Assembly (NCBI GenBank): GCA_000002445.1
Contig: CP000070.1
Span: 384,001-448,000 of the forward strand
Source of the DNA: Trypanosoma brucei
Lineage: Eukaryota
Direction: 5' to 3'
DNA: 64,000 nt
Shown: in pieces, positions 37,539-42,926 of the stretch
Numbering within the stretch: position 1 is the stretch's first letter
Layout: each line of letters begins with the position of its first letter
Position numbers and translations under genes: made by a program
The notes under the pieces: model-generated
Database searches by the model: none
The model's input: only the letters and a program-made list of their open reading frames with translations
Told to the model about the DNA's origin: nothing

Positions 37539-38594
37539 ATGACAGAACCGAAGTTAGCAACCACGCACGTAGTGGGTGAACCCACCTTCGAAGGACTGGC
37601 ACGTTTCATTGAGCGAAACAACATCACCAAAATATTTGTTATGGTGGGCGCAGGGATAAGCGTTGCAGCTGGAATCCCCGACTTCCGCTCTCCCCACACC
37701 GGCTTGTACGCTAAACTCAGTCGCTACAATCTCAACTCACCGGAGGACGCCTTCTCACTCCCTCTCTTGCGTCAACAACCAAGTGTGTTTTACAACATTC
37801 TGATGGATATGGACCTCTGGCCCGGGAAGTATTGTCCTACGACGGTTCACCACTTTATCAGTCTACTCGCCAAGAAGGGCATGTTATTATGCTGTTGTAC
37901 GCAGAACATAGACGGGTTGGAACGCGCCTGCGGAATTCCAGAGTCTTTACTAGTTGAAGCCCATGGTTCCTTCTCTTCCGCATCATGTGTTGACTGTCAC
38001 GCGAAATATGACATCAACATGGCGAGGGCGGAGACAAGGGCTGGAAAAGTGCCTCATTGCAATCAATGTGGTGGTATAGTGAAACCCGACGTGGTTTTCT
38101 TTGGCGAGAATCTCCCGGAGGCGTTTTTTAACGTAGCGGGACTCATTGAGGAAACGGAATTGCTGCTTATTTTGGGAACCTCACTTCAAGTCCACCCATT
38201 TGCCGACCTTGCGCTCATGGTGCCCTCTGACGTGCCACGAGTGTTGTTTAACTTGGAGCGCGTGGGCGGGAGGATGTTCCGCTTTCCTACGGACCGAACA
38301 CCCAATTTCCGCGCCAGTTCCTATCGTCTCAGCACTGGAAATGGCAATGGCAGTAAAATTAGCAGTGGGGACAGCAGCAACAGCAGCAGCGTCGACGGGT
38401 ATGACCAGTTTACGCTCGCAGAGAATGACGAGACGGGCGTGTTGCGTGACATTTTCTTTCCTGGTGACTGTCAGGTGTCTGTTCGTTCCTTTGCCCAGGC
38501 GTTGGGCTTCGGAGAGCAGCTTGACGCCTCTGTACGTGAGGGAAGGGAAATATTTGAGCGCACTCGGCGTAGGGAAAAAGTCGTTGAGGGTTAA
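37539..38594 (+). CDS. SIR2rp1: NAD-dependent protein deacetylase/ADP-ribosyltransferase, sirtuin family (SIR2-related protein 1)
   Basis: GAGISVAAGIPDFRSPHTGLYAKL, QNIDGLE, HGSF, and the Zn ribbon CVDCH...CNQCGG. 351 aa, matching the size recalled for TbSIR2rp1. Confidence 0.8.
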   Translation: MTEPKLATTHVVGEPTFEGLARFIERNNITKIFVMVGAGISVAAGIPDFRSPHTGLYAKLSRYNLNSPEDAFSLPLLRQQPSVFYNILMDMDLWPGKYCPTTVHHFISLLAKKGMLLCCCTQNIDGLERACGIPESLLVEAHGSFSSASCVDCHAKYDINMARAETRAGKVPHCNQCGGIVKPDVVFFGENLPEAFFNVAGLIEETELLLILGTSLQVHPFADLALMVPSDVPRVLFNLERVGGRMFRFPTDRTPNFRASSYRLSTGNGNGSKISSGDSSNSSSVDGYDQFTLAENDETGVLRDIFFPGDCQVSVRSFAQALGFGEQLDASVREGREIFERTRRREKVVEG

Positions 38595-38844
38595 CACGCT
38601 TGTAGACACTTGAAAACTGTATGAGTGGGGCCGTGTTTTCATACGTTTTCGTCTGTGGTGCGTGTGGTTACAGCACAATGTGATTCATGTATATGTGCGC
38701 GTGTCCGTTGAAACTGCCTGTAATGCTTAAATTTTATTTTCTTTCCTACATTTGCTGGAAAGTGGTTGCGTTTATTTTCAGTTCTTTTATGGCACCGGAT
38801 GCTTTGGGGTAATGTACGTCGCCCCGCGTTCATGTTTCACATCA

Positions 38845-38880
38845 TTCTCTCTCTCTCTCTCTTTGCTTCGTTGGGTGCAG
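38845..38880 (+). promoter_or_regulatory. (TC)n polypyrimidine tract plus AG acceptor upstream of the FAM20-like gene
   Basis: ttctctctctctctctctttgcttcgttgggtgcag followed 15 nt later by ATG 38896. Confidence 0.4.
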
Positions 38881-38895
38881 CCGTCGTTAGCTGTC

Positions 38896-40746
38896 ATGTG
38901 CCTTTGGCAACTTGCATTGCTGCCGTTTTGTATTGCGTTGCGTACTTCTCTTTTCCTTTTTGGGACTTCTGAGGCAAGCATTGCGCACATTGAAAGGGCG
39001 GAAAACAGTTCAAGTACTAGAAACATATCTATTCCAGGAACAACCTCCCCCCTCTTTTTCAGAAGGAGTGGAAAGGAAAGACAGTACATGAGGTACAGTG
39101 TTGTCAGAACGCGGCCGTCTCGCAGCCGCAGGCTGCGTCACTGTGTGCTAATTTCATTTCTAGCATTATTACTGATGATGCTTTCTTTGTCTATATCGTT
39201 CTACAACACCCGGAGAAGTGTCGACAGTCTAAAGATGAAACTGCGAGAAGATGCGGCAGGGAACCCACTACTGCGGGAGGGTGCCGCACAAACCGCTTGG
39301 AGCTTGTTGAACACAGAAAATGGTTCTTTATGGGGTTACGTTGGCGGTATTGACAGCCTTATAGAAAAAAGAGTTGACCGGGCGTACTGGGGACCAACCA
39401 TGTTCCGGAGCAACGAAGGAACCGTGAATGAATCCACGGTTACAAATGTTGTGTCTGAGCGGTTCCGCAACTTAAACATGAGCGAGGCTGAGATGAAGCG
39501 TAGGTACAAACGACATCAGCTGGTGAAGGAGGTCACAGGCTGTGATTCACTATCCGTACCGTTTAACCCTCTGCATGACAGCCGCTGTATTAACTTCATG
39601 ACCAACTCTTCTAATTGGTTGGATGTAGTTCCTATTGGACAAAATGTTGATCAACGTACCATCAAATTCAGGCTATTATTTAAGCCGCTACGTATAAATG
39701 CAAGCTATAGTGTCGAGTATCCCCTCGAAACTTTTGTTAAGGTACCACAGAAATACTTCGTGCTTGAGGCAGCAAGCGAGGTGGTTGCGTTCAATGTTGA
39801 CCGTCTTCTTCTTGTCAATCGCGTGCCGCCTACGGGGCTGGGTTGTCTCCCGCTTAACACGCTAAGAGGGTCTGTCAACAAGTATAAACATAATACGTCA
39901 ACGTTTAAAAAGTTTCTCCAGGATTCGAAAGCCGAAAATTACGAGCAGTGGATCGAAAAGGACCTCTTTCATTTCCTACGGCGGGCGAAGCATCATCTTC
40001 GCAAAAACGGTAACAACCAAACGTGTGTTCTGGTCTCCATCCAACTGAAGATTGCTGATGTGGTGCACTTTCTCGAAACGCCGATGCGAATCCCCTACCG
40101 TGTTTTTAGCGACACGTGGTTCGACTATTTCGACCTTAGGGCTAATGTAGGCGAGTTGGAGGATGGTTTGCCAACATTTGCACATGAACGTCACTACCCG
40201 GGTGTCCTTCACCTCGCAGCACTTGCGATGTTTGACTATGTCATAGGCAATATGGACCGATCACCTTTCAAGAATAACTTTGTGGTGGGCGGAGTGGCCA
40301 ACCAACTGGTTTCGGATAATACGACTCTTCTTCACCCAAACCACCCAACGTTTGTATATTTGGATCATGGTTCCTCATTTCGACTGCGACGACCCGAGCG
40401 AAACCCTATAGCGAAGTCTCATATTGGCTTTGAAAATGGAAAAGAGGACACTTTTTGTCTTTTCCGCGGTCCATTGCTGCGGCGTATTCAAGAACTTACC
40501 GGACCATCGGGAGAAGTTACACACGGAAATAAAGCGAAGGAAGAAGCCTATGGTGCCGCACACAATCATAGAAGTACGGAGACTTTGTTCACCCATATGT
40601 TAAGGGAGAGAGTTCCACCGGAGGTGTATTCCGTTATTGATAGCAGTAACTTGGATTTGGTTGTGGTTCGTATGAAAGAGCTGCTTGCCATGGCAGGGCG
40701 CTGTCTTTCCGATGAGCGTATACGCCGAACTGTACTATTTCCGTAA
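38896..40746 (+). CDS. FAM20-like secretory-pathway (Golgi) kinase candidate with an N-terminal signal/anchor
   Basis: ERHYPGVLHLAALAMFDYVIGNMDRSPFKNNF resembles the FAM20 D(F/L)LIGNMDRHHYE catalytic segment, and FVYLDHGSSF resembles the FAM20 LDNGRGF (DFG-equivalent). Hydrophobic N-terminal segments are present. The tracked ORF start 38752 is TTG. ATG 38896 follows a (TC)n tract and AG; ATG 39088 (MRYSVV..., type-II anchor) is an alternative. Confidence 0.5.
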   Translation: MCLWQLALLPFCIALRTSLFLFGTSEASIAHIERAENSSSTRNISIPGTTSPLFFRRSGKERQYMRYSVVRTRPSRSRRLRHCVLISFLALLLMMLSLSISFYNTRRSVDSLKMKLREDAAGNPLLREGAAQTAWSLLNTENGSLWGYVGGIDSLIEKRVDRAYWGPTMFRSNEGTVNESTVTNVVSERFRNLNMSEAEMKRRYKRHQLVKEVTGCDSLSVPFNPLHDSRCINFMTNSSNWLDVVPIGQNVDQRTIKFRLLFKPLRINASYSVEYPLETFVKVPQKYFVLEAASEVVAFNVDRLLLVNRVPPTGLGCLPLNTLRGSVNKYKHNTSTFKKFLQDSKAENYEQWIEKDLFHFLRRAKHHLRKNGNNQTCVLVSIQLKIADVVHFLETPMRIPYRVFSDTWFDYFDLRANVGELEDGLPTFAHERHYPGVLHLAALAMFDYVIGNMDRSPFKNNFVVGGVANQLVSDNTTLLHPNHPTFVYLDHGSSFRLRRPERNPIAKSHIGFENGKEDTFCLFRGPLLRRIQELTGPSGEVTHGNKAKEEAYGAAHNHRSTETLFTHMLRERVPPEVYSVIDSSNLDLVVVRMKELLAMAGRCLSDERIRRTVLFP

Positions 40747-40750
40747 ATTT

Positions 40751-40794
40751 TATTATTATTATTGTTGTTGTTGCTGTTGTTGTTTTAGTATATT
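40751..40794. repeat. (TTA)n/(TTG)n trinucleotide microsatellite
   Basis: ttattattattattgttgttgttgctgttgttgtttt immediately after the stop of the FAM20-like gene. Confidence 0.8.
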
Positions 40795-41260
40795 CACTCG
40801 CACGCTGCTATTTTTTATTACTTATTCCATCTCTGGCTTTTTCCAAGTGTACATGTGTTTTTCCATTGTAATGGCACGTCGCGTGTTACTCACATATGCT
40901 CTGAAAACCAATTTAAAGTTGAGTTTCTTTTATTTTTTATTTTTTAAATTGTTCTGCCTACTAGCGTCATTCCCTCCATACATGTGTGTGTATATGTATT
41001 TCGTTTTTCCCACGTTGTTTCCCACTCTTGCGTTTGAGAGAACCACTGGTAACTTCAAATATGTAACGGATTACGTTTCCCCCCTCCAAAAAAAAAAAAT
41101 AATAATAATAATAATCGCGTACGTTAGTTCCTGCAATTGTTTACATGTGTTTACTTAATGAAGTACCACTGTACATGCGTGGGATTCTCTATATACTTTC
41201 CTGCGCGTGTGCGCAAATTTATACTGACGAACTCGATAACGTTTTCTCTTAGAAGTTTAA

Positions 41261-41292
41261 GTGAGTGTGAGTGTGTGTGTGTGTGTGTGTGT
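41261..41292. repeat. (GT)n / (GTGA) microsatellite
   Basis: gtgagtgtgagtgtgtgtgtgtgtgtgtgtgtgtc. Confidence 0.85.
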
Positions 41293-41708
41293 CTGCAAGG
41301 ATAAAAGAAGGTGTAGGGTGGAAACAAAAAGGAACAGCTAAAAAAAGAAAAGGTGAATAATGCATAGAGTGAGACGAGGGGTGTCGGAGGAATCGCTAAG
41401 CTGGGTCCCTGCCACACGTTTCCTATATAACATTTATTTCACTGATACCGACTTTCCCCCTTACTCAGACTACATATGTCTGTTTTTTGTGTGCGTTTTC
41501 TATTTATTTATTTCCCCCTCTCTTTCCATTACAGCTTTACGGGTGAAGCACAAAAGAATAAGACGGGGATTTGCGTCACCGTCCAATTTTATTTATTTAT
41601 TTTTTTTGCCTTTCCGGTGATGCACCTCTAACGTATTTACCTTTTTTTTTCTTTTACTTTGTTTTGCTTCTTCCACTATTTCTCGTTAAAATCATCTCTT
41701 TCAGGGAG

Positions 41709-42926
41709 ATGCGCTTGTTGAAAAAGTCGGTGACAGCAGAAGGTGCTGTGGAGGTAAAGTTGCAAGTAAGTACCAGTGAAGATTTGTGGCATTTATATAA
41801 TTTGGTGCTTCCAGGAGACCAGGTACGCACGAACACAAGACGAAAGGTTGTGAAGGAAACTTCTATAGGATCACAGGCTGCGGAGGTGCGAACAATTACA
41901 TTACAGTTACAGGTACGCAACACAGAGTTCTCTCCTGATGAGCTACGCGTTCAGGGAGTTAACGTTAAGGAGAATGAATGCGTAAAGTTGGGTGCACATC
42001 ACACACTTTCAGTACACGCATTTCCACCGCAGGATGTTGTGATTTTGAAGGATGAGTGGAATGATGTATTCGCTGCACGTCTGAAGGAAGCGTGCGATAA
42101 TGAGTCGCGAGCAGACACAGTGGCAGTTTTGATGGACAGTGGTACTGCATCCGTTCTCCTGGTAACTCCTTCCTTCATGTACACAAAAGCAAAGATTGAG
42201 GTGTCCATAGCCAAGAAACATAAGAACGATGGAACCGCACGGGATAGGAGCATTCAGCGGTTCTTCAAACAAGTGTTGGACGCCCTCTGCATGCACGTAG
42301 ACTTTGATAAGGCTAAGTTGATCCTTATTTGCTCTCCGGCGCATGTGCGGGAGGAATTCAAAGCGTATGTAGAAGCCGCAATGGCTCATTCTGAGGCTAT
42401 GGCTATGCGCAACCTCCGCAAAAACTTTTCTAAGATAGTGTTAATAAAGGTGAGAGACAATACGAACGACGCCCTTCGTGAGGCGTTCGCGGATCCTAAC
42501 ATTGCAAATCAGATGGAATCTACACGATGCCGTGACGAGATAAAAGTGTGGCAGGACTTTCAGAAGACGATGGATGAGGATCCAGACCGCTGCGTATATA
42601 CGCCACAAATGGTTTACAGAGCGGCGATGTTAGGGGCTGTGGGAAAACTTATGGTGAGTGACGTTGTGTTTCGCTCTGAAGACCCCACAGTGCGTCGCTT
42701 TTACCTTTCACTCATTCGTTTTGTGCGGCAGGGCGGTGGTGGTGTTAGTGTTTTTTCTAGTAACCACGTCACTGGCGAGCAGTTAACGCAGTTGGGGTTT
42801 GTTGCAGCTATTCTTCATTTCCCCTGTGATGAACTTGATGATCTGGAGGTGGTGGAAAATTTTATCGACAGCGAGGAAGCCGCAACCTTCATTCGGGAAA
42901 ATGCTGCGGCAAGTGTAGTTGTGTAA
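41709..42926 (+). CDS. Pelota/Dom34 ribosome-rescue factor (eRF1-like)
   Basis: MRLLKKSVTAEGAVEVKLQVSTSEDLWHLYNLVLPGDQVRTNTRRKV aligns with the Pelota N-terminus MKLVRKDIEKDNAGQVTLVPEEPEDMWHTYNLVQVGDSLRASTIRKV. About 405 aa. The upstream part of tracked ORF 41571 is a T-rich UTR. Confidence 0.8.
   Translation: MRLLKKSVTAEGAVEVKLQVSTSEDLWHLYNLVLPGDQVRTNTRRKVVKETSIGSQAAEVRTITLQLQVRNTEFSPDELRVQGVNVKENECVKLGAHHTLSVHAFPPQDVVILKDEWNDVFAARLKEACDNESRADTVAVLMDSGTASVLLVTPSFMYTKAKIEVSIAKKHKNDGTARDRSIQRFFKQVLDALCMHVDFDKAKLILICSPAHVREEFKAYVEAAMAHSEAMAMRNLRKNFSKIVLIKVRDNTNDALREAFADPNIANQMESTRCRDEIKVWQDFQKTMDEDPDRCVYTPQMVYRAAMLGAVGKLMVSDVVFRSEDPTVRRFYLSLIRFVRQGGGGVSVFSSNHVTGEQLTQLGFVAAILHFPCDELDDLEVVENFIDSEEAATFIRENAAASVVV

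What the first reader, a model, noticed from the sequence alone, without database searches (positions are those of the whole stretch)
38896..40746. FAM20/Golgi-casein-kinase-like secretory kinase candidate in a kinetoplastid
The GNMDR catalytic-loop segment (FDYVIGNMDRSPFKNNF) and a DHG DFG-equivalent (YLDHGSSF) match the atypical FAM20/Fjx1 secretory-pathway kinase family. They occur in a protein with N-terminal signal or anchor hydrophobic segments. Secretory-pathway kinases are sparsely characterised outside metazoa. The start codon is ambiguous: 38896 or 39088.
Basis: partly seen in the sequence, partly recalled or inferred. Interest (0 to 1): 0.5.

Follow-up and report, generated by a model that had tools for sequence, protein, structure and literature searches.

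The report
Trypanosome FAM20-like secretory-pathway kinase
This unnamed Trypanosoma brucei gene encodes a membrane-anchored enzyme distantly but clearly related to the animal Golgi kinases of the FAM20 family, which the reviews I read describe only in animals; all its catalytic residues are intact, but what it phosphorylates is unknown.

Summary
The window is T. brucei TREU927 chromosome 7. The ORF lies between SIR2rp1 and DOM34 and is annotated only as "hypothetical protein, conserved".

Alone, the protein gets no Pfam hit and only E=0.09 against FAM20A. With profiles the link is firm:
- A 65-sequence family profile hits only FAM20A/B/C in the PDB at E≈1e-18. PI4K type II comes next at 1e-5.
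- hhalign against animal FAM20 gives 99.4% probability, E=2e-21.

The residues matching FAM20C E311, D451, D458 (catalytic) and D478 (DFG-like) are invariant in 65/65 relatives, as are two lysines and one FAM20 disulfide.

ATG 39088 is the best-supported start. It gives an arginine-rich tail followed by one transmembrane helix, a type II anchor that would place the kinase in the ER/Golgi lumen.

The named relatives are all Euglenozoa: trypanosomes, Bodo, diplonemids and euglenids. Some paralogues are fused to GT8-like glycosyltransferases.

The Tb protein itself fails Pfam's Fam20C threshold, and its catalytic loop differs after "DR". Substrate (glycan or protein) and localisation are untested.

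The parts
39088..40746 (+). Best-supported coding sequence (552 aa plus stop) of the FAM20-like kinase. By gene order it is probably Tb927.7.1700.
   Evidence: All 8 orthologues begin at the position equivalent to ATG 39088. The encoded protein is 100% identical to the T. brucei TREU927 'hypothetical protein, conserved'. It is flanked by SIR2rp1 (Tb927.7.1690) and DOM34 (Tb927.7.1710).
38812..39087 (+). Probably 5' UTR or intergenic, not translated.
   Evidence: It has no counterpart in any orthologue. Codon-usage score is -0.025 bits/codon, against a coding mean of 0.257 and a 5th percentile of 0.112. It contains a (TC)8.5 tract at 38846-38862. A cleaved signal peptide here would put the Arg-rich stretch and the kinase domain on the wrong side of the membrane (inference).
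39044..39062 (+). 17-nt polypyrimidine tract followed by AG, 25 nt upstream of ATG 39088. Candidate spliced-leader acceptor site.
   Evidence: Read directly from the sequence. Not mapped experimentally here.
39097..39141 (+). Arginine-rich stretch (SVVRTRPSRSRRLRH, aa 4-18), predicted to face the cytosol.
   Evidence: Orthologues also have a basic stretch before the hydrophobic segment. Orientation follows the positive-inside rule (inference).
39142..39204 (+). Single transmembrane helix or signal anchor (CVLISFLALLLMMLSLSISFY, aa 19-39), giving type II topology.
   Evidence: Kyte-Doolittle 19-mer mean up to 2.52. It is helical in both models. 89 of 108 full-length family members have an N-terminal hydrophobic 19-mer.
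39538..40743 (+). FAM20-like atypical kinase domain (aa about 151-552).
39541..39588 (+). Family-specific invariant cysteine pair C152 and C167 (GCDSLSVPFNPLHDSRC), N-terminal to the kinase N-lobe. A disulfide is likely.
   Evidence: Both are 65/65 invariant. No aligned counterpart in FAM20. The disulfide itself is an inference.
39652..39669 (+). QRTIKF strand carrying invariant K193. Proposed equivalent of FAM20C K271 (TQLKL).
   Evidence: K193 is 65/65. It sits at the start of strand 193-198. The equivalence rests on motif pattern and spacing relative to the FAM20 consensus and on PMC5413348. This is an inference.
39733..39750 (+). FVKVPQ strand carrying invariant K218. Proposed equivalent of the second FAM20C phosphate-binding lysine in the FKPM motif (numbered K285 from my own recollection, not from a paper read here).
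   Evidence: K218 is 65/65. It sits at the end of strand 214-218, just before helix 227-240. Inference, as for K193.
39763..39837 (+). αC-like helix and the following loop (LEAASEVVAFNVDRLLLVNRVPPTG). E231 equals FAM20C E311 (ceFam20 E218). E227 approximately equals E306 (ceFam20 E213).
   Evidence: It aligns to [20 protein letters not shown]. E231 is 65/65; position 227 is 63 Glu plus 2 Asp. The roles of these residues are described in PMC5865150.
40231..40293 (+). Catalytic segment FDYVIGNMDRSPFKNNFVVGG. D383 equals FAM20C D451. D390 equals D458, the catalytic base. N396 is the probable metal-binding Asn.
   Evidence: It aligns to FDFLMGNMDRHH. D383, N388, D390, R391 and N396 are all 65/65. 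The role of N396 is an inference.
40357..40380 (+). YLDHGSSF, the DFG-equivalent. D426 equals FAM20C D478, the metal-binding Asp.
   Evidence: It aligns to HLDNGRGF. D426 and G428 are 65/65. PMC5413348 states that D478 aligns with the DFG Asp.
40456..40704 (+). C457 and C539, a cysteine pair aligned with the FAM20 disulfide Cys341-Cys400 (hydra numbering).
   Evidence: Both are 65/65 invariant. C457 aligns to the second Cys of the QCC motif and C539 to the VRDC Cys. The disulfide map is in PMC5865150.

Best explanation
The gene encodes a type II membrane protein of 552 aa, starting at ATG 39088. It has a short Arg-rich cytosolic tail, one signal-anchor helix (aa 19-39) and a luminal catalytic domain with the FAM20 (Golgi casein kinase / xylosylkinase) atypical kinase fold.

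**Shown**
- Homology to FAM20, by sequence profiles and by fold.
- Strict conservation of the residues that FAM20C uses for catalysis, across the family.
- N-terminal hydrophobic anchors throughout the family.

**Inferred mechanism**
- The anchor inserts the protein into the ER, and it resides in the ER/Golgi with the kinase domain in the lumen.
- ATP with Mn2+ or Mg2+ is held by K193 and K218, with K218 positioned by E231/E227, and by D426 and N396.
- D390 acts as the catalytic base that deprotonates a substrate hydroxyl.
- The C152-C167 and C457-C539 disulfides stabilise the luminal fold.

**Substrate**
It is unknown. I slightly favour a sugar hydroxyl on a glycoconjugate (about 50%) over Ser/Thr of secretory or surface proteins (about 40%). 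Paralogues in Bodo, T. grayi and uncultured relatives are fused to GT8-like glycosyltransferase domains, and the ancestral animal Fam20 activity is a glycan kinase.

**Family**
The protein is the single-copy, syntenic trypanosome representative of a divergent clade of the FAM20 superfamily. All named members of that clade are Euglenozoa.
For: **Identity and neighbours**
- 100% identical to a T. brucei TREU927 hypothetical protein.
- Neighbours are SIR2 and pelota/DOM34.

**Homology**
- The 9-sequence profile hits only FAM20 chains in the PDB, best E=1.2e-5.
- The 65-sequence profile hits them at 1.9e-18 to 2.1e-16, with PI4KII at 1e-5.
- hhalign against 20 animal FAM20C/A sequences: 99.4% probability, E=2.1e-21, 250 columns.
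- 34 of 65 relatives hit Pfam Fam20C at E below 0.01, best 1.6e-9.

**Fold**
- Template-free AlphaFold model, pLDDT 88.2, pTM 0.84.
- The top 28 Foldseek PDB hits are all Fam20, E about 1e-8.

**Catalytic residues**
- K193, K218, E231, D383, N388, D390, R391, N396, D426 and G428 are invariant in 65/65. Position 227 is 63 Glu plus 2 Asp.
- Their FAM20 counterparts and roles are given in PMC5413348, PMC5865150 and PMC7948968.

**Topology**
- Arg-rich stretch plus transmembrane helix, shared by orthologues.
- 89 of 108 family members have an N-terminal hydrophobic segment.
- Four cysteines are invariant (65/65), and the T. brucei luminal part carries 8 N-glycosylation sequon positions.

**Start codon**.

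**Distribution and synteny**.

**GT fusions**.
Against: - The T. brucei protein alone gives no Pfam hit even at E≤1 and only E=0.088 to FAM20A.
- Identity to Fam20 structures is 12-18%.
- The N-lobe strands, including both lysines, are not alignable to FAM20 by sequence. hhalign starts at aa 230.
- After GNxDR the catalytic loop reads SPxKNNFVVGG with a six-residue insertion, instead of FAM20's HHYE. This gives weak PI3_PI4_kinase hits.
- Only one of FAM20's four disulfides is matched.
- I could not inspect model coordinates, so active-site geometry is unverified.
- There is no experimental evidence here for localisation, topology, activity or substrate.
- The GT fusions are in paralogues, not in this orthologue group, and most of their GT hits are below Pfam thresholds. 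The exception is P0151.
Confidence: 0.72

Rival explanations
1. It is a PI4K type II-like lipid or small-molecule kinase acting on the cytosolic face of a membrane, not a luminal FAM20-type enzyme.
For: - Weak Pfam PI3_PI4_kinase hits occur in 6 of 9 orthologues and 6 of 65 relatives.
- The family profile hits PI4KIIα/β at 1e-5 to 2e-4.
- The DRxxxKN catalytic loop resembles the DRxxxN loop of lipid kinases (my own knowledge).
Against: - The PI4KII match covers only the catalytic-loop region, profile positions 324-414. FAM20 aligns from αC to the C-terminus, including a shared disulfide pair.
- The N-terminal Arg-rich stretch plus anchor, the invariant cysteine pairs and the sequons point to a luminal domain.
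Confidence: 0.05
2. It has the FAM20 fold but is not a phosphotransferase acting on its own substrates. It could be a pseudokinase or allosteric partner like FAM20A, or an enzyme with different nucleotide chemistry such as AMPylation.
For: - FAM20A shows that this fold can lose catalysis yet be retained as an activator (PMC5413348).
- The catalytic loop after DR is unlike any characterised FAM20.
- No activity data exist.
Against: - Every residue whose loss defines FAM20A-type pseudokinases is kept. Position 227, the E306-equivalent, is Glu or Asp in 65/65, and K193, K218, D390 and D426 are invariant.
- Such strict conservation across kinetoplastids, diplonemids and euglenids indicates selection on catalysis.
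- Trypanosoma has one stand-alone copy, so an obligate catalytic partner of the same type is missing, apart from the GT-fused paralogue.
Confidence: 0.12
3. It is specifically a FAM20C-type protein kinase acting on secreted or surface proteins. In T. brucei it could be the unidentified membrane-associated kinase that phosphorylates Thr in the GPEET procyclin repeats.
For: - The catalytic machinery is FAM20-like.
- The predicted topology is luminal or ecto-facing.
- GPEET repeats are acidic, like FAM20C targets (my own knowledge).
Against: - Orthologues exist in T. cruzi, T. vivax, T. theileri and other species. As far as I know these species lack GPEET, so the conserved function must be something else.
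- The ancestral animal Fam20 is a glycan kinase.
- Paralogues are fused to glycosyltransferase-like domains.
- The GPEET kinase activity is stage-restricted, and nothing here bears on expression.
- The FAM20C dimer interface and S-x-E recognition were not testable.
Confidence: 0.3
4. The motif match is a coincidence in a non-coding or mis-annotated ORF.
For: - The single sequence gives no Pfam hit.
- The annotated N-terminus looks non-coding.
Against: - Orthologues at 47-51% identity occur in at least seven other Trypanosoma species, and 158 representative homologues were found.
- Synteny is conserved.
- The downstream 1.1 kb of the ORF has coding-like codon usage.
- The model is high-confidence.
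Confidence: 0.01

Closest known systems
FAM20 family (FAM20C Golgi casein kinase, FAM20B glycosaminoglycan xylosylkinase, FAM20A pseudokinase; Pfam PF06702)
   Same: - Alignable from αC to the C-terminus at 99.4% hhalign probability.
- Shared motifs: (S/A)E(V/I)AAFxxDRxLxxxRVPP, FDxxxGNxDR and LD(H/Q/N)G.
- Counterparts of E311, E306, D451, D458 and D478 are all present.
- The C-terminal disulfide (hydra Cys341-Cys400) is conserved.
- N-terminal membrane anchor or signal with a luminal catalytic domain.
   Different: - The T. brucei protein is below Pfam's Fam20C threshold (no hit).
- Identity is 12-18%.
- The Kβ3-Kα3 loop is about 12 residues shorter.
- The catalytic loop continues SPxKNNFVVGG with a six-residue insertion, instead of HHYE.
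- Three of the four FAM20 disulfides are not matched, and a different N-terminal Cys pair (C152/C167) is invariant.
- The named members of this clade are Euglenozoa, whereas the FAM20 reviews and the structure-evolution paper I read describe and searched for the family only in animals.
- Some paralogues are fused to GT8-like domains, which I have not seen reported for animal FAM20 (my own knowledge).
- Substrate, dimerisation and secretion are unknown.
Phosphatidylinositol 4-kinase type II (PI4KIIα/β)
   Same: - Similar catalytic-loop logic, an Asp followed a few residues later by an Asn (my own knowledge).
   Different: - The match is limited to the catalytic-loop region.
- PI4KII enzymes are cytosolic and palmitoylated (my own knowledge). 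They lack an N-terminal signal anchor and luminal disulfides.
- Scores are far weaker than for FAM20.
Other atypical kinases of the same structural neighbourhood (H. pylori CtkA, HipA, actin-fragmin kinase, CotH)
   Different: Scores are much lower. These are bacterial or cytosolic proteins without the αC-to-C-terminus collinearity, the shared disulfide or the type II anchor.

Membership tests
FAM20 / Pfam PF06702 (Fam20C domain) | Scores above Pfam's gathering threshold (26.8 bits) for PF06702 | tested here: not met
   The T. brucei protein has no Pfam hit at E≤1 or at E≤10. Of 65 relatives, 34 hit at E below 0.01. At least one, P0151, passes the threshold at 28.9 bits.
FAM20 / Pfam PF06702 (Fam20C domain) | Homology to FAM20 detectable by profile methods, with FAM20 as the best-matching family | tested here: met
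   Family profiles against the PDB hit only FAM20A/B/C and ceFam20, at 1.2e-5 and 1.9e-18. hhalign gives 99.4% probability, E=2.1e-21.
FAM20 / Pfam PF06702 (Fam20C domain) | FAM20-type atypical kinase fold | tested here: met
   [not shown]
FAM20 / Pfam PF06702 (Fam20C domain) | Catalytic Asp (hs D458), DFG-like metal-binding Asp (hs D478), catalytic-segment Asp (hs D451) and αC Glu residues (hs E311 and E306) | tested here: met
   D390, D426, D383 and E231 align to these residues and are 65/65 invariant. Position 227 is 63 Glu plus 2 Asp, offset by one residue relative to E306.
FAM20 / Pfam PF06702 (Fam20C domain) | Two phosphate-binding lysines in the N-lobe (hs K271, and a second Lys in the FKPM motif) | tested here: inconclusive
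   K193 (RTIKF) and K218 (KVPQ) are invariant. They sit on strands before αC with a spacing like FAM20's TQLKL...FKPM. No sequence alignment covers them, and model coordinates could not be superposed.
FAM20 / Pfam PF06702 (Fam20C domain) | Four conserved disulfides of Fam20B/C | tested here: not met
   Only C457-C539 aligns with a FAM20 pair (hydra Cys341-Cys400). The other FAM20 cysteines have no invariant counterpart. C152 and C167 are family-specific.
FAM20 / Pfam PF06702 (Fam20C domain) | Catalytic loop GNMDRHHYE | tested here: not met
   GNMDR is identical, but it is followed by SPFKNNFVVGG, with a six-residue insertion relative to FAM20C.
FAM20 / Pfam PF06702 (Fam20C domain) | Entry into the secretory pathway, with a luminal catalytic domain | tested here: inconclusive
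   Hydropathy and charge predict a type II anchor, and this is family-wide in 89 of 108 members. Cysteine pairs and sequons fit a luminal domain. No dedicated signal-peptide or topology predictor was available, and there are no experimental data.
FAM20C (Golgi casein kinase) specifically | S-x-E/pS protein substrate specificity and a dimer-dependent active form | not testable with these tools
   Needs biochemistry. The dimer-interface residues lie in regions that are not reliably alignable.
FAM20B (xylosylkinase) specifically | Gal-Xyl binding pocket residues (hydra T114, Q115, Y148-Y151, Y214, Y253, H301, K321) | tested here: inconclusive
   Hydra H301 in DRH corresponds to S392, which varies in the family (36 S, 11 G, 7 W). 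That argues against the FAM20B pocket. The N-lobe pocket residues cannot be aligned. One diplonemid relative carries an automated KEGG FAM20B tag, which is not evidence of function.
Four-jointed / Fjx1 | Closer to Fjx1 than to FAM20A-C | not tested
PI4K type II | Best match to the PI3_PI4_kinase profile or PI4KII structures | tested here: not met
   [not shown]

The most novel reading that the evidence does not exclude
FAM20-type kinases of the secretory pathway are not an animal invention. A catalytically intact clade exists across Euglenozoa, stand-alone or fused to GT8-like glycosyltransferases. Trypanosoma brucei keeps one stand-alone copy, which would be its first recognised luminal kinase. 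The boldest reading is that this enzyme is the long-unidentified membrane-associated kinase that phosphorylates GPEET procyclin, or that it phosphorylates another surface protein or glycan of the parasite coat.
Probability: 0.07. Interest if true: 0.8.

Novelty: new member of a known kind. Interest (0 to 1): 0.45.

Why it matters
**What it changes**
- It gives a concrete, testable function to a conserved trypanosome "hypothetical protein". As far as I know, the published kinome catalogues do not list it.
- It adds a predicted luminal kinase to an organism whose surface coat biology is central to disease.

**Questions it makes testable**
- Identity of the GPEET procyclin kinase.
- Whether phosphorylated glycans or proteins are made inside the trypanosome secretory pathway.

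**Evolution**
- The reviews and the structure-evolution paper I read trace Fam20 only within animals, "from sponge to mammals". This is an ancient, catalytically intact sister clade in a distant eukaryotic supergroup.
- The glycosyltransferase-kinase fusions suggest an ancestral link between this fold and glycan modification.

**Limit**
It remains a remote-homology annotation with no experimental support, so the surprise is moderate.

Tried and rejected
**Searches that gave nothing or could not be run**
- Single-sequence Pfam scan: no hit.
- Single-sequence PDB phmmer: only marginal, E=0.088.
- Word-indexed homologue search with the 9-sequence profile: no new sequences. The exhaustive search was needed.
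- First AlphaFold run with 9 sequences: poor (pLDDT 62, catalytic loop disordered). It still ranked Fam20 first and was superseded by the 65-sequence model.
- The afdb50 fold library was unavailable, so Fjx1, GASK1 and other non-PDB relatives were not compared structurally.
- Model coordinates are not exposed to scripts, so I could not measure active-site or Cys-Cys distances.

**Literature**
- No paper links FAM20 to kinetoplastids, diplonemids or euglenids.
- Tb927.7.1700 is not mentioned in any searchable text.
- It is not in the held supplements of TrypTag or of the 2025 structure-based kinetoplastid annotation paper. Those files may be truncated.

**Interpretations rejected**
- The phmmer pairing of Tb "LLFKPLRIN" with FAM20A "AMFKPMRQQ". 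That Lys (K199) is not conserved (22 of 65). K193 and K218 are the invariant lysines.
- Start at 38896 with a cleavable signal peptide. It is not conserved and is topologically inconsistent with the Arg-rich stretch before the anchor.

**Left open**
- Whether Leishmania lacks the gene. No Leishmania-named protein appeared, but an unnamed 60%-GC contig carries a 35%-identical homologue.
- There is no second copy in this window.
Full report
**1. What is in the sequence**

The + strand carries an ORF at 38752..40746.
- Its product is 100% identical to a Trypanosoma brucei brucei TREU927 protein named only "hypothetical protein, conserved" (644 aa, which implies a start at ATG 38812).
- Upstream is a SIR2-family gene at 37539-38594. 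Downstream is a pelota/eRF1-like gene at about 41706-42926.
- The literature gives SIR2rp1 as Tb927.7.1690 and DOM34 as Tb927.7.1710. By gene order the gene is therefore presumably Tb927.7.1700, which is an inference. No searchable paper mentions that ID.
FDYVIGNMDRSPFKNNF is at nt 40231 onward, and YLDHGSSF is at nt 40357-40380.

**2. Start codon and topology**

There are three in-frame ATGs: 38812, 38896 and 39088. The evidence favours 39088.
- Orthologues from T. cruzi, T. rangeli, T. theileri, T. melophagium, T. conorhini and T. grayi (47-51% identity), T. vivax, and unnamed kinetoplastid contigs all begin at the position equivalent to 39088. Nothing upstream is conserved.
- The 38812-39087 stretch has non-coding-like codon usage: -0.025 bits/codon, against 0.257±0.082 for in-frame windows of 15 long ORFs in the window, with a 5th percentile of 0.112. 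The first 92 codons after 39088 are also lowish at 0.079, so this test is only supportive.
- That stretch contains a (TC)8.5 tract.
- A 17-nt polypyrimidine tract followed by AG (39044-39062) lies 25 nt before ATG 39088. This is the usual look of a trans-splice acceptor. It is read from the sequence and has not been mapped.

From 39088 the protein begins MRYSVVRTRPSRSRRLRH, followed by CVLISFLALLLMMLSLSISFY (Kyte-Doolittle up to 2.5).
- A basic stretch followed by one hydrophobic helix indicates a type II signal anchor with the rest of the protein in the lumen, by the positive-inside rule (inference).
- A signal peptide starting at 38896 would invert this arrangement, so I reject that start.
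- Among family members that look full-length, 89 of 108 have a strongly hydrophobic 19-mer near the N-terminus, with a median start at residue 13.
- The luminal part has 8 N-glycosylation sequon positions and seven cysteines. Four of those cysteines are invariant across the whole family.

**3. Is the FAM20 resemblance real?**

With the single sequence it is marginal.
- There is no Pfam hit even at E≤1.
- phmmer finds FAM20A at E=0.088, through two short collinear segments.

With evolutionary information it becomes firm.
- A profile of nine orthologues hits six PDB sequences. All of them are FAM20A, FAM20C, zebrafish Fam20C1, C. elegans Fam20 or hydra Fam20, with a best E of 1.2e-5.
- An exhaustive HMM search of 1.84 billion representative proteins found 158 relatives, 82 of them below 1e-30.
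- A 65-sequence alignment of diverse full-length relatives hits the same FAM20 chains at 1.9e-18 to 2.1e-16. The next family, PI4K type II, is at 1e-5.
- 34 of the 65 relatives individually hit Pfam Fam20C at E below 0.01 (best 1.6e-9), and at least one exceeds the gathering threshold.
- I retrieved animal FAM20C and FAM20A sequences and aligned 20 of them. hhalign of the two families gave 99.4% probability, E=2.1e-21, over 250 columns running from the αC helix to the C-terminus.

**4. Fold**
- AlphaFold2 without templates, using the 65-sequence alignment, gave pLDDT 88.2 and pTM 0.84. The 9-sequence run was poor at 61.9.
- In Foldseek against the PDB, the first 28 hits are all Fam20 structures (E 1.4e-8 to 1.2e-5, TM-score 0.5-0.59 normalised by target). 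PI4KII follows.
- FAM20 is therefore the nearest solved fold, within the broader PI4KII/HipA/CotH-like group of atypical kinases.

**5. Catalytic residues**

Numbering is from ATG 39088. Invariant in 65/65 sequences are C152, C167, K193, K218, E231, D383, N388, D390, R391, N396, D426, G428, C457 and C539. Position 227 is 63 Glu plus 2 Asp.

The alignments give the following equivalences. Offsets were checked against the printed chain numbering.
- E231 equals human FAM20C E311 (ceFam20 E218). PMC5865150 says this residue aligns with the canonical ion-pair Glu.
- E227 approximately equals E306 (ceFam20 E213), the residue that is Gln in the pseudokinase FAM20A. It is one residue closer to E231 than in FAM20.
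- D383 equals D451, where the Raine-syndrome D451N mutation disrupts a salt bridge in the catalytic segment.
- D390 equals D458, the HRD-like catalytic base.
- D426 equals D478, the DFG-like metal-binding Asp.
- C457 and C539 align with the second Cys of "QCC" and with the last Cys. In hydra Fam20 these form the Cys341-Cys400 disulfide.

The two phosphate-binding lysines cannot be aligned by sequence, but three points suggest that K193 and K218 are their equivalents (inference).
- K193 (RTIKF) and K218 (KVPQ) lie on β-strands just before the αC helix in the model.
- They resemble FAM20's TQLKL and FKPM motifs.
- In the family consensus they are about 15 residues apart. I recall about 14 for FAM20, a figure I did not check here.

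The protein therefore has everything FAM20C needs for catalysis and lacks the FAM20A-type lesion.

**6. Differences from FAM20**
- The T. brucei protein fails Pfam's threshold for Fam20C.
- Identity to Fam20 structures is 12-18%.
- The loop between the second Lys and αC is about 12 residues shorter.
- After GNMDR the catalytic loop reads SPFKNNFVVGG. The family consensus is SPNKNNFVVGG, and T. brucei alone among the aligned trypanosomes has F394. This is a six-residue insertion relative to FAM20's HHYE, and it probably explains the weak PI3_PI4_kinase hits.
- Three of FAM20's four disulfides have no counterpart, and a different invariant pair (C152/C167) precedes the N-lobe.
- T. brucei also has an 18-residue insertion (EVTHGNKAKEEAYGAAHN, nt 40513-40566) that the other trypanosomes lack. 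It is modelled with low confidence.

**7. Distribution and context**
- Named relatives come from T. vivax, the diplonemids Namystynia, Artemidia, Rhynchopus and Flectonema, the euglenids Euglena gracilis and Entosiphon, and Bodo saltans. The remainder are unnamed metagenomic or SRA assemblies.
- Synteny is kept in unnamed kinetoplastid contigs, with SIR2 upstream in L002 and pelota downstream in the P0011 contig.
- No Leishmania-named protein appeared. A 60%-GC unnamed contig carries a 35%-identical homologue. Absence from Leishmaniinae is therefore not established.
[quoted passage not shown] I found no paper linking FAM20 to Euglenozoa.
- One diplonemid transcript carries an automated KEGG tag "FAM20B". 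Pipelines can therefore already detect the resemblance for some members.

**8. Glycosyltransferase fusions**

A more distant subgroup has an N-terminal GT8-like region and a short MGAT5-C-terminal-like region before the kinase domain.
- Members include Bodo saltans P0073 (annotated "glycogenin glucosyltransferase, putative"), P0084, P0100, P0105 and P0117.
- P0151 passes Pfam thresholds for both GT8 (28.4 bits against a cut-off of 24.3) and Fam20C (28.9 against 26.8).
- T. grayi P0155, annotated "putative glycogenin glucosyltransferase", has a C-terminal domain matching this family at 99.8% hhalign probability. It keeps the K, K, E, D...NxDR...N and DHG residues.
- Trypanosomes thus have a second, fused paralogue. 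None lies in this window.

**9. Mechanism and rivals**

*Best explanation (confidence about 0.7).* This is a type II-anchored, luminal, catalytically competent FAM20-like kinase.
- Homology, fold and residue conservation are shown.
- Luminal location, metal/ATP binding and D390 acting as the base are inferred.

*Protein-kinase reading.* This remains plausible. It includes the speculative candidate of the unidentified membrane-associated GPEET procyclin kinase. The orthologues in species without GPEET mean this cannot be the conserved function.

*Other rivals.* A PI4KII-like cytosolic lipid kinase is disfavoured by every score and by the predicted topology. A pseudokinase or alternative chemistry is disfavoured by the invariant catalytic set. 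A chance match is refuted.

**10. Verdict**

Three corrections apply:
- the start is 39088;
- the protein belongs to a divergent Euglenozoan clade of the FAM20 superfamily, not to FAM20 proper;
- "casein-kinase-like" describes fold and chemistry only.

It is a new, uncharacterised member of a known kind of enzyme. It is moderately interesting for trypanosome secretory and surface biology and for the origin of FAM20-type kinases.

Noticed in passing
P0155 (T. grayi, aa 377-714), P0073 (Bodo saltans), P0151, P0084, P0100, P0105, P0117; not in the window: Proteins annotated "glycogenin glucosyltransferase, putative" in kinetoplastids carry a C-terminal FAM20-like kinase domain with all catalytic residues, behind a GT8-like domain. 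P0151 passes Pfam thresholds for both GT8 and Fam20C. This looks like an undescribed bifunctional glycosyltransferase-kinase architecture.
   Followed up: partly
window 38812-39087: The 644-aa length of the identical GenBank protein implies a start 92 codons upstream of the conserved one. That extension is not conserved, has non-coding-like codon usage and contains a (TC)8.5 tract at 38846-38862. A polypyrimidine tract plus AG at 39044-39062 precedes ATG 39088. The gene model probably needs trimming.
   Followed up: partly
window 40513-40566: T. brucei has an 18-residue insertion (EVTHGNKAKEEAYGAAHN) in a C-lobe loop that all other aligned trypanosome orthologues lack. It is modelled with low confidence.
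   Followed up: no
window 40267-40269 (F394): In the otherwise near-invariant catalytic-loop motif DRSPNKNNF, T. brucei has Phe where the other eight sequences of the nine-sequence orthologue alignment have Asn. Across the wider family the position is N in 38 of 65 and G in 12 of 65.
   Followed up: no
window 40762-40784, 41098-41115, 41261-41292: The 3' intergenic region before DOM34 contains microsatellites: (TTG)7.7 right after the stop codon, (AAT)6 preceded by an A-run, and (GT)16. These create spurious low-complexity ORFs in the mechanical ORF list, such as poly-Cys and His-Thr runs.
   Followed up: no
window 37539-42926; L002; contig of P0011: The gene order SIR2rp1, FAM20-like kinase, DOM34/pelota is conserved in unnamed kinetoplastid contigs. 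In one of them a pyridine-nucleotide disulfide oxidoreductase gene is inserted before pelota.
   Followed up: partly
L001 (Logan SRR28423917, 59.7% GC): An unnamed high-GC contig carries a 35%-identical homologue (P0009). It could come from a Leishmaniinae-like or other kinetoplastid genome. No Leishmania-named orthologue was returned, so presence or absence in Leishmania remains open.
   Followed up: no
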